Positions 1 through 1,553 of a DNA stretch of 4,882 bases are shown here, one piece after another. The stretch is from the IMG/VR virus record IMGVR_UViG_2617270978_000018; one strand, written 5' to 3'. Position numbers and translations under genes: made by a program. The notes under the pieces were generated by a model. It saw nothing but the letters and a program-made list of their open reading frames with translations. It searched no databases and was not told the origin of the DNA. This stretch comes from a virus (Duplodnaviria; Heunggongvirae; Uroviricota; Caudoviricetes). Numbering within the stretch: the first letter of the stretch is position 1; each line of letters starts with the position of its first letter.

Positions 1-188
1 TACGCGTAAAACAGCCAGCGCTGGCGCGATTTAGCCCCGACATAGCCCCACTGTTCGTCCATTTCCGCGCAGACGATGACGTCACTGCCCGGCTGTATGC
101 GCGAGGTTACCGACTGCGGCCTGAGTTTTTTAAGTGACGTAAAATCGTGTTGAGGCCAACGCCCATAATGCGGGCTGTTGCCCGGCAT
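1..188 (-). CDS. insB: IS1 InsB' frame (catalytic part of the InsAB' transposase), partial; C-terminus lies beyond the window start
   Basis: Hand translation of the minus strand in the -1 frame relative to insA, from the ATG at 188..186, gives [63 protein letters not shown]..., which matches recalled InsB. There is no stop before the window edge, which is why it is missing from the supplied ORF track. Confidence 0.85.
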
Positions 189-382
189 CCAACGCCATTC
201 ATGGCCATATCAATGATTTTCTGGTGCGTACCGGGTTGAGAAGCGGTGTAAGTGAACTGCAGTTGCCATGTTTTACGGCAGTGAGAGCAGAGATAGCGCT
301 GATGTCCGGCGGTGCTTTTGCCGTTACGCACCACCCCGTCAGTAGCTGAACAGGAGGGACAGCTGATAGAAACAGAAGCCAC
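107..382 (-). CDS. insA: IS1 InsA (transposition inhibitor / DNA-binding N-terminal part of the InsAB' transposase)
   Basis: The 91-aa [46 protein letters not shown]...LKNSGRSR matches the recalled IS1 InsA over its full length, including the Cys-rich zinc-finger-like motif (CPSC...CSHC). It is at the expected distance from the inverted repeat. Confidence 0.95.
125..131 (-). other. A6C programmed -1 ribosomal frameshift motif of IS1 (produces the InsAB' fusion transposase)
   Basis: The minus strand reads TTAAAAAAC at the 3' end of insA, where the insA frame (LKNSGRSR*) and the insB' frame (LKKLRPQ...) overlap. This is the established IS1 frameshift site. Confidence 0.85.
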
Positions 383-410
383 TGGAGCACCTCAAAAACA
401 CCATCATACA

Positions 411-1553
411 CTAAATCAGTAAGTTGGCAGCATCACCCGATATCGAACCAAATAAGAAAGAGCCAACCGCATATTTTTCTGTGGATACATTACCATTCCT
501 GCCTGCTGCCCCCTGCGGCCCTGCCGGACCACGAGGGCCTGCCGGGCCGGTTTTCCCCTGCGGCCCCGCGGGACCCACTGCACCAGGTGCGCCAGGTTCC
601 CCCCTGTCCCCCTTCGGTCCGGGGACTGCTGCCCGGGTTGCTGCCTCTTCTGCCTTCGTTTTTGCTGCCTGCACTTCTGCCATTACCGCTTTCACAGCCT
701 TTGGGGTTGCCGCTTTTGTTTCATCATCGCTGTTGGTATCGCTGCTCAGCTGTACAACACCTTTCTGTGATGTGCTGGCATCCGGAACACTGGCGACACT
801 GCCTGCGGGACCCGCAGGACCTGCGGGGCCGGTTTCTCCCCGAGGGCCTGCGGGACCTGCCGGACCTGTTGCGCCGGGTTCACCTTTATCCCCTTTCGGG
901 CCGGTTTGCCCTGCCGGACCCTGTGGTCCGGGTGGTCCGGCCTCTCCACGTGGGCCGGTGTCACCTTTCGGCCCCGGCGGTCCGCCCGGGTCACCTTTAT
1001 CGCCCTTCGGTCCCTGTGGACCTGTTTCTCCCCGTTCTCCCTTTGGCCCCGGCTCACCTTTTGGTCCGACCGCCCCCGTTGCCCCGGCTGGTCCCTGTGC
1101 CCCTGTGGCACCCTGTGGACCTGTGTCCCCCTTCTCGCCCGCCGGTCCCCGGGCATTCTCTGCCCGTTTCTTCGCTTCCTCTGCACTCGCCGCCGACGCT
1201 TCAGCACGCTTCAGGATTTCCGCTGCCACCGCTTCCAGCTCTGCAAGCGCTTTCGGGTAATACTGCGCCTCATCCTGTTCCATCAGAAATTTATTCAGCG
1301 TTCCCGGCTCAGAATCCGCCTTCACCAGAATGTCACCCACATATGACGGGGCGTACCCTTCCGTGTTCAGCGTCACCCGGTACCACCCCGGCTCCACATC
1401 AAAACTGTAACTGCCGGTTTCCCCCGGCTGCCCCTGCGCCACCGTGGTGACTATCACTGTCTCTGTGGTGCGTCGCGCTTTCAGCTCTATGGTGCATCCC
1501 GGCACCGGCTTCCCGGTGCCGTCCTTCAGCACGCCCGATATTCTGACTGTCAT
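411..1553 (-). CDS. stf: Side tail fibre protein (lambda Stf-like) with collagen-like repeats, 3'-truncated by IS1; probable pseudogene fragment. Native codons 438..1553; the last 8 codons plus stop (411..437) come from the IS1 inverted repeat
   Basis: The N-terminus [28 protein letters not shown]...EPGTLNKFL is clearly homologous to the recalled lambda Stf N-terminus ([28 protein letters not shown]...QPGTLNDFL). An internal motif [25 protein letters not shown] matches lambda Stf [25 protein letters not shown] (the phage tail-fibre repeat motif). There are long Gly-X-Y tracts. An RBS GGGAG lies 6 nt upstream of the ATG at 1553. The ORF ends ...[12 protein letters not shown], where GDAANLLI* is the translation of the IS1 repeat GGTGATGCTGCCAACTTACTGATTTAG. 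Confidence 0.85.
415..437 (-). repeat. IS1 left terminal inverted repeat (IRL, ~23 bp)
   Basis: Minus-strand sequence GGTGATGCTGCCAACTTACTGAT at the outermost end of the IS1 homology, matching the recalled IS1 inverted repeat. Confidence 0.9.
492..620 (-). repeat. Collagen-like Gly-X-Y repeat block 2 within stf (aa ~312-354; ~14 triplets)
   Basis: Translation [43 protein letters not shown], immediately upstream of the IS1 junction. Confidence 0.9.
801..1148 (-). repeat. Collagen-like Gly-X-Y repeat block 1 within stf (aa ~136-251; ~38 triplets with a single register break at G190-G191)
   Basis: Direct reading of the translation: [116 protein letters not shown]. The DNA is visibly GC-rich and has a 9-nt periodicity. 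Confidence 0.9.

What the first reader, a model, noticed from the sequence alone, without database searches (positions are those of the whole stretch)
1..437. The distal stf region and tfa assembly chaperone are predicted to lie beyond the IS1, or to have been deleted by it
In lambda-like phages the side tail fibre gene is followed by its receptor-binding C-terminal region and the tail-fibre assembly gene tfa. Neither can be in this window because IS1 occupies 1..437. If the far side of IS1 lacks the 9-bp duplicate and the stf continuation, the event was an IS1-mediated deletion or rearrangement rather than a simple insertion. That would indicate a decaying (cryptic) prophage rather than a recently acquired one.
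Basis: inference. Interest (0 to 1): 0.45.

Follow-up and report, generated by a model that had tools for sequence, protein, structure and literature searches.

The report
IS1 cuts prophage tail-fibre gene
An ordinary IS1 insertion cuts off the last 78 codons of a collagen-like side-tail-fibre gene in a P-EibA-like E. coli prophage, and because the sequence stops inside IS1 nobody can tell from it whether the rest of the gene and its chaperone gene survive.

Summary
Window 1-437 is 437/437 identical to the left part of IS1. It abuts a tail-fibre gene (stf, minus strand) that loses its 3' end at base 438.

IS1-free alleles show what is missing. One is 465/465 identical up to the junction. They carry:
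- 78 more stf codons, which encode a small C-terminal cap
- a 191-aa DUF4376 gene (ORF-191A of prophage P-EibA), a chaperone type different from lambda Tfa
- an Eib-like adhesin gene and two small ORFs
- then dinI and the chromosome, or a SPATE autotransporter gene

No invertase and no long lambda-type distal Stf region occur in any relative.

The central question, simple insertion or IS1-mediated deletion, cannot be answered. The two retrievable public contigs with this junction also stop inside IS1, as short-read assemblies do at multicopy repeats. I could not find the far-side contig. None of 5,426 complete E. coli genomes carries the insertion.

The "decaying cryptic prophage" inference is not supported. 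The lom ORF is complete and the J ORF is open to the window edge. From memory, side fibres are dispensable in lambda.

Verdict: an ordinary IS1 insertion, of low interest. One loose end is a set of about 18 assemblies whose contigs all begin at exactly this site.

The parts
1..437 (-). Left 437 nt of IS1 (IS1 nt 437 down to nt 1 when read on the plus strand). The window ends inside the element.
   Evidence: 437/437 identity to IS1A of K-12. Contigs L002 and L003 carry the same junction and end at IS1 nt 389 and 347.
415..437 (-). IS1 left terminal inverted repeat (GGTGATGCTGCCAACTTACTGAT). A promoter-like site lies at 430-403.
   Evidence: Alignment. Promoter-like match.
107..382 (-). insA (91 aa), in the same orientation as stf.
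   Evidence: Pfam Zn_ribbon_InsA and HTH_Tnp_IS1. ORF list.
1..188 (-). 5' part of the insB frame (ATG at 188-186), cut by the window end.
   Evidence: Coordinates transferred from the K-12 IS1A annotation.
438..446 (.). The 9 bp flanking IS1 (cgatatcga on the plus strand, TCGATATCG in the stf direction, encoding Ser-Ile-Ser). This is the expected target duplication if the insertion is simple. It is part of a 10-bp palindrome, TCGATATCGA, in the intact allele.
   Evidence: Sequence. Intact alleles read ...GGTTCGATATCG|ACTCTCG. The site lies in an AT-rich pocket of 35% GC over about 50 bp either side, next to 66% GC collagen-coding DNA.
411..1553 (-). Truncated side-tail-fibre gene stf'. It has 372 native codons (438-1553) carrying PfN, coiled coil, collagen, Phage_fiber_2 and collagen. 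These are fused to 8 IS1-encoded codons and a stop (411-437).
   Evidence: The intact allele would be 450 aa. The NCTC9112 allele is 480 aa.
1571..1600 (-). Terminator-like hairpin plus T-run between lom and stf.
1704..2303 (-). lom (199 aa, complete ORF).
   Evidence: Pfam Ail_Lom, E = 1.7e-126. The exact protein is widespread.
2371..4882 (-). C-terminal 835 or more codons of the tail-tip protein J. The ORF is open to the window edge.
   Evidence: Pfam Phage-tail_3, Ig_J, Ig_J_second, Phage_Tail_Tip and Ig_GpJ_C. It is 98-99% identical to 1157-aa J genes of relatives.

Best explanation
An IS1 copy transposed into the side-tail-fibre gene of a P-EibA-like lambdoid prophage of E. coli. It landed in an AT-rich pocket just after the GC-rich collagen-coding shaft, and its insA/insB read in the same direction as stf. 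The fibre protein now ends after residue 372 of 450, with 8 IS1-encoded residues added. It lacks the 78-residue C-terminal cap. In related collagen-like prophage fibres that cap is the trimerisation module and the proposed receptor-binding end. The truncated product is therefore most likely non-functional (inferred).

The window stops at IS1 nt 437 because it is a short-read contig that broke in a multicopy repeat, not because the biology ends there.

The most likely state of the unseen side is a simple insertion (inferred). It would comprise the rest of IS1, a second copy of TCGATATCG, the 237-bp stf remnant, and the DUF4376 chaperone-type gene. An eib-like gene, two small ORFs and the prophage end would then follow. 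The prophage's main adsorption protein J is not visibly damaged in the part that is seen, and lom is complete. The event disables an accessory fibre rather than proving that the prophage is dead.
For: - IS1 identity and the exact junction.
- An IS1-free allele (L059) is 465/465 identical up to window 438. It continues with 78 stf codons, the DUF4376 gene, an Eib-like gene, 157-aa and 57-aa ORFs, dinI and yehU.
- The same gene order occurs in 8 complete genomes, in many drafts, and in the described prophage P-EibA, AF151091.
- The window is 97.3% identical to P-EibA over J, lom and the 5' part of stf.
- The two retrievable public contigs with the junction (GCA_000687005.1 and GCA_000627315.1) stop inside IS1. 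A third strain, 1-176-05_S4_C3, has a protein ending in the same fusion tail.
- The C-terminal domain of a related collagen-like fibre is a trimerisation module (PMC3368898).
- DUF4376 proteins encoded just after fibre genes are experimentally shown chaperones (PMC7289586, PMC10579305, PMC7882524).
- Eight contig types from about 18 other assemblies start at TCG|ACTCTCG, exactly at this site, and carry the remnant plus DUF4376. This would fit a retained far side.
Against: - The far-side junction was never seen.
- Pattern scans of three collections found neither junction, so those collections are uninformative.
- Exact look-ups of predicted junction ORFs found nothing.
- No complete genome has the insertion.
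- The contigs that start at the site carry no IS1 bases and only 3 of the 9 expected duplicated bases. They also belong to a different remnant/DUF4376 allele, about 92% identical. They may reflect an unrelated event.
- IS1 is multicopy, so recombination between copies or adjacent deletion is a real possibility.
- Loss of fibre function is inferred from a relative whose cap domain is not detectably homologous.
Confidence: 0.65

Rival explanations
1. IS1-mediated deletion or rearrangement. After insertion, adjacent deletion or recombination with another IS1 copy removed or displaced the stf 3' end, the DUF4376 gene and perhaps the eib cargo and prophage end. The far side of this IS1 would then be unrelated DNA with no matching 9-bp repeat.
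For: No far-side junction could be found by any route. E. coli genomes carry many IS1 copies: the IS1-containing query matched a median of 11 places per genome. This region is IS-prone in relatives, with an IS21-family ISEc12 between the DUF4376 gene and the eib-like gene in NCTC9112 and an IS21-type transposase pair at the same position in CP145707. Some relatives have lost the DUF4376 gene, for example L040.
Against: The negative searches are uninformative, because the same collections also lack the near-side junction. From general knowledge, most IS1 copies in genomes are simple insertions with 9-bp duplications. Contigs that begin exactly at the site and carry the remnant exist in other assemblies.
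Confidence: 0.3
2. The IS1/stf junction is an assembly chimera, and the real genome has an intact stf.
For: The window is a short-read contig that ends in a repeat. No complete genome has the junction.
Against: The identical junction occurs in two independently deposited contig types seen in 2 and 3 samples. A protein from a third strain also ends in it. The break falls precisely at the IS1 terminal base with a plausible 9-bp AT-rich target.
Confidence: 0.03

Closest known systems
IS1 (IS1A of E. coli K-12), IS1 family
   Same: 100% identity over nt 1-437, including the left inverted repeat, insA and the start of insB. The target is AT-rich.
   Different: Only 57% of the element is in the window. 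The right end and the target duplication are unseen.
Prophage P-EibA of E. coli ECOR-9 (GenBank AF151091; J, lom, orf-401-like, orf-191A, eibA, orf-156A, orf-60A, eaaA)
   Same: It has the same J-lom-stf module, 97.3% identical over 2.2 kb. The IS1-free allele closest to the window is 99.3% identical to its orf-401-like 3' end plus orf-191A.
   Different: P-EibA has an intact 479-aa fibre gene. The window's allele has a 30-codon shorter collagen tract and the IS1. Whether the source strain carries an eib gene is unknown.
Lambda stf-tfa, and the stf frameshift of lambda PaPa
   Same: The position after J and lom is the same, and so is the N-terminal domain (PF08400). As in lambda PaPa (from my own knowledge), the side fibre gene is broken while J is not.
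   Different: The fibre is 450-480 aa and collagen-like, against 774 aa in lambda (figure from memory). The downstream gene is DUF4376, not Tfa/Caudo_TAP. There is no invertible segment. Here the lesion is an IS, not a frameshift.
EPcl collagen-like prophage fibre proteins of EHEC (Ghosh et al. 2012, PMC3368898)
   Same: The architecture is the same: PfN, coiled coil, collagen, Phage_fiber_2 and a small C-terminal cap.
   Different: The 78-aa cap of this allele matches no Pfam family or PDB chain. Its equivalence to PfC is therefore an analogy only.
DUF4376 tail-fibre chaperones (Alteromonas phage V22 gp27, A5 gp9; Campylobacter CJIE1)
   Same: ORF-191A has the PF14301 domain and lies 13 bp after the fibre gene. 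Its predicted fold matches viral DUF4376 proteins.
   Different: No experiment exists for the E. coli protein. PHROGs labels its families 'tail fiber protein'. The gene is not in the window.

Membership tests
IS1 family insertion sequence | 23-bp terminal inverted repeat at the element end | tested here: met
   Window 415-437 equals the left inverted repeat of IS1A.
IS1 family insertion sequence | insA (Zn ribbon plus HTH) followed by an overlapping insB frame with the A6C slippery site | tested here: met
   Pfam hits for InsA. Sequence is 100% identical to IS1A through nt 437, which includes TTAAAAAAC and the insB start.
IS1 family insertion sequence | Complete 768-bp element with a right inverted repeat | not testable with these tools
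   The window and the two retrievable public contigs with the junction end at IS1 nt 347-437.
IS1 family insertion sequence | Direct duplication of the target, 9 bp as a rule, on both flanks (the mark of a simple insertion) | not testable with these tools
   Only one flank (cgatatcga, 438-446) is visible. Searches for the predicted far-side junction found nothing.
Lambda-type side tail fibre system (Stf plus Tfa) | Stf N-terminal domain (PF08400), encoded after J and lom | tested here: met
   phage_tail_N at residues 1-134, E = 6.9e-43. Gene order is J-lom-stf.
Lambda-type side tail fibre system (Stf plus Tfa) | Downstream Tfa of the Caudo_TAP (PF02413) type | tested here: not met
   In IS1-free relatives the downstream gene matches only PF14301 DUF4376. 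There is no PDB fold match.
   No recombinase gene lies between stf and the prophage end in about 30 related loci.
P-EibA-like prophage tail-end module | J, lom and a collagen-like orf-401-like fibre gene with high identity to AF151091 | tested here: met
   97.3% identity over 2206 bp.
P-EibA-like prophage tail-end module | orf-191A (DUF4376) and an eib gene downstream of the fibre gene | not testable with these tools
   These lie beyond IS1 and outside the window. They are present in the IS1-free allele L059 and in 8 complete genomes.
EPcl collagen-like prophage fibres | PfN, coiled coil, collagen (and Pf2) shaft | tested here: met
   Pfam phage_tail_N, Collagen and Phage_fiber_2. Architecture as described in PMC3368898.
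EPcl collagen-like prophage fibres | PfC or PfC2 C-terminal trimerisation domain | tested here: inconclusive
   The 78-aa cap of intact alleles has no Pfam or PDB match. It was not compared directly with PfC.

The most novel reading that the evidence does not exclude
The boundary between the collagen shaft and the C-terminal cap, at the 10-bp palindrome TCGATATCGA in an AT-rich pocket, may be a recurrent breakpoint. It would be hit independently in different fibre alleles: by IS1 in the window's lineage, and by an unknown junction in about 18 other assemblies whose contigs all start at TCG|ACTCTCG. That would make it a hot spot at which prophage side fibres are repeatedly switched off or have their cap-plus-chaperone module exchanged.
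Probability: 0.1. Interest if true: 0.3.

Novelty: already known. Interest (0 to 1): 0.1.

Why it matters
It matters little beyond annotation.

- The gene should be annotated as an IS1-disrupted pseudogene of a P-EibA-type collagen-like side tail fibre.
- The end of the contig inside IS1 should not be read as biology.
- The useful corrections concern what to expect downstream in this prophage family: a short cap, a DUF4376-type chaperone and an eib-like adhesin gene, rather than lambda's long distal Stf, Tfa or an invertase.
- If the strain carries an eib gene downstream, the polar IS1 might affect late-operon read-through into it. That is speculation.

Tried and rejected
1. Looking for the junction in 5,426 complete E. 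coli genomes. None has it. Eight have the same allele intact.

2. Exact-protein look-up of the 380-aa fusion. This found only two draft contig types, both ending inside IS1.

3. Searching for far-side contigs through the stf remnant and the DUF4376 protein and its fragments. The remnant-bearing loci checked were uninterrupted stf copies or contig-edge pieces. No IS1 sequence was found in any fetched locus except L002, L003 and the K-12 reference.

4. Exact pattern scans for both junctions in viral, genome-representative and metagenome collections. All were negative, including the near-side control, so these scans are uninformative.

5. Exact look-ups of 12 ORFs predicted to span or follow a hypothetical far-side junction, using 9-bp and 3-bp duplication models and two alleles. 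None was found.

6. Explaining the contigs that start at the site by a SNP or mosaic boundary. This was rejected as unsupported, because 29 intact loci have an identical 45 bp upstream. The true mosaic boundary lies about 116-155 bp further upstream, at window 554-593.

7. Testing whether ORF-191A is a lambda or Mu Tfa relative. There was no Pfam Caudo_TAP hit and no PDB sequence or fold match.

8. Look-up of the third near-side protein, P0158. It is not on record in the gene index.

Full report
**What is in the window**

On the minus strand the window encodes four things.
- The C-terminal 835 or more codons of the tail-tip protein J (2371-4882).
- lom (1704-2303).
- A tail-fibre gene (411-1553).
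- The left part of IS1 (437-1), with insA at 382-107.

Window 1-437 is 437/437 identical to nt 1-437 of IS1A of E. coli K-12. The left inverted repeat ends exactly at base 437. The fibre ORF has the Pfam domains phage_tail_N, Collagen and Phage_fiber_2. It ends with 8 residues (GDAANLLI) and a stop read from the IS1 end.

**What the uninterrupted gene looks like**

None of 5,426 complete E. coli genomes has the IS1/stf junction. Eight of them match from window 438 onward and run straight through the site.

In NCTC9112 the intact gene is 480 aa. The insertion point lies 237 bp before the end of the ORF, which is 78 codons plus the stop.

The best reference is a 238-kb draft contig, L059 from GCA_027979845.1. 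Its first 465 bases are 100% identical to window 902-438. It continues TCGATATCG|ACTCTCG... into the 78 remaining codons. The ancestral protein of the window's allele was therefore 450 aa.

The following genes lie downstream in L059.
- A 191-aa DUF4376 protein, starting 13 bp after stf
- A 372-aa YadA-anchor protein with a match to EibD
- 157-aa and 57-aa ORFs
- dinI on the other strand
- The chromosomal yehU-yehT-yehS-yehR block, which I recognised from protein sizes and domains

The same order recurs in about 30 loci, with the fibre gene varying from 402 to 520 aa. It ends either at dinI and the chromosome or at an S6-peptidase autotransporter.

It is also the order of the described prophage P-EibA of strain ECOR-9, GenBank AF151091: J, lom, orf-401-like, orf-191A, eibA, orf-156A, orf-60A, eaaA. 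The DUF4376 protein of L059 is identical to one that UniRef names ORF-191A. The window is 97.3% identical to P-EibA over J, lom and the 5' part of stf.

- The missing fibre part is a small cap, not a long distal region.
- The fibre belongs to the collagen-like prophage fibre proteins (EPcl) described by Ghosh et al. In those, the short C-terminal domain was shown to be a trimerisation module that nucleates refolding of the collagen helix, and it was proposed to bind the host (PMC3368898).
- The downstream gene is not lambda Tfa. It matches only PF14301. A confident AlphaFold model (pLDDT 94) has no significant match among solved structures. It does match many viral DUF4376 proteins.
- DUF4376 proteins encoded directly after fibre genes are experimentally established chaperones in Alteromonas phages V22 and A5. 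One is also required for the Campylobacter CJIE1 H-fibre (PMC7289586, PMC10579305, PMC7882524). Some deposited coliphages annotate the homologue as a tail fibre assembly protein. 'A chaperone gene lies beyond' is therefore right in function but wrong in family.
- No invertase occurs in any relative.

**Why the window ends in IS1**

The exact 380-aa fusion protein is on record on only two contig types. They are JMGW01000055.1 (4,834 bp) and JJLQ01000033.1 (2,675 bp), seen in 2 and 3 samples. They are 99.96-99.98% identical to the window and end at IS1 nt 389 and 347. A protein from a third strain, 1-176-05_S4_C3, ends in the same fusion tail; the cluster table lists it on a 736-bp contig, which I could not retrieve.

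These are short-read contigs that break in a multicopy repeat. The IS1-containing query matched a median of 11 places per genome. The window edge is an assembly artefact, and the far side is simply on another contig.

**Attempts to find the far side**

All of the following failed.
- I searched through the stf remnant, through the DUF4376 protein and its fragments, and with the IS1 sequence against every fetched locus. Only uninterrupted copies turned up.
- Pattern scans for the predicted junction GTTGGAGTCATTACC|TCGATATCG|ACTCTCG were negative in three collections. So was the near-side control, which makes these scans uninformative.
- Exact look-ups of ORFs predicted to span the junction were negative.

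Insertion versus deletion therefore remains open. I put a simple insertion at about 0.65-0.7, for three reasons.
- General IS1 behaviour favours it.
- The junction is clean.
- The target is a typical AT-rich one, with 35% GC over about 50 bp either side against 66% GC in the collagen tract.

**One unexplained observation**

Eight contig types from about 18 other assemblies all begin at the same base, TCG|ACTCTCGAAAG. They carry the remnant plus a DUF4376 gene. That start is the last 3 bp of the putative 9-bp target.

Twenty-nine intact loci have an identical 45 bp upstream. The real mosaic boundary lies 116-155 bp further upstream. A SNP or a module boundary therefore does not explain a break at this point.

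These contigs could be clipped far-side flanks of a repeat inserted at this very site. That would argue that the remnant is retained. However, they carry no IS1 bases, and they belong to a different allele, about 92% identical downstream. I treat them as a lead only.

**On the 'decaying cryptic prophage' idea**

The evidence does not carry that conclusion. The lom ORF is complete. The J ORF is open to the window edge, 98-99% identical to relatives whose J ORFs are complete.

From my own knowledge, lambda PaPa forms plaques with a frameshifted stf, so side fibres are accessory. Only 4.9 kb of the prophage is visible, so its overall state cannot be judged.

**Verdict**

This is a real but ordinary IS1 insertion into a known type of prophage fibre gene. 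Its key test cannot be done from this sequence. Interest is low.

Noticed in passing
L041-L048, position 1 (NCBI assemblies GCA_043608245.1, GCA_012181825.1, GCA_019591345.1, GCA_011870025.1 and others). This corresponds to window 440-438 and beyond.: Eight contig types from about 18 samples all start at the same base, TCG|ACTCTCGAAAG. That is exactly at the window's IS1 insertion site. They carry the stf remnant plus a DUF4376 gene and have no IS1 bases. Known SNPs or mosaic boundaries do not explain this.
   Followed up: partly
L021-L024, L053, L055, L056 (for example L022 1663-3885): The same C-terminal fibre module (homologous to window 438-593 plus the remnant) and its DUF4376 gene also end a 668-aa protein. 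That protein belongs to a different phage type, which has a P22-like portal and an SU10-type adaptor. The cap-plus-chaperone cassette is therefore exchanged between unrelated phages.
   Followed up: partly
L001 4371-6673; L031 8893-11200: IS21-family elements (annotated ISEc12 in NCTC9112; an IS21-type IstA/IstB pair in CP145707) sit between the DUF4376 gene and the eib-like gene. This tail-end cargo region collects IS elements repeatedly.
   Followed up: no
window 554-1100 compared with L001 8208-9200: The collagen tract varies in length. The window's allele lacks 30 codons ([30 protein letters not shown]...) that are present in NCTC9112. Relatives range from 402 to 520 aa. Many draft assemblies break inside this tract.
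   Followed up: partly
window 424-1260 (+), 587-1450 (+), 746-1207 (-): Long ORFs lie antisense or out of frame across the collagen-coding DNA (278, 287 and 153 aa). They are by-products of the GC-rich triplet repeat, not genes. Older annotations call some of them, for example a 275-aa ORF in L050.
   Followed up: no
window 1600-1571 (-) and 2352-2333 (-): Terminator-like hairpins with T-runs follow lom and J on the coding strand. Expression of stf from the late operon would therefore need read-through.
   Followed up: no
L059 2110-3228; L001 2726-3907; L060 3918-5096: Relatives carry a variable Eib-like YadA-anchor adhesin gene (360-508 aa) downstream. In the P-EibA type a SPATE autotransporter (eaaA) also follows. 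Whether the source strain has them is unknown.
   Followed up: partly
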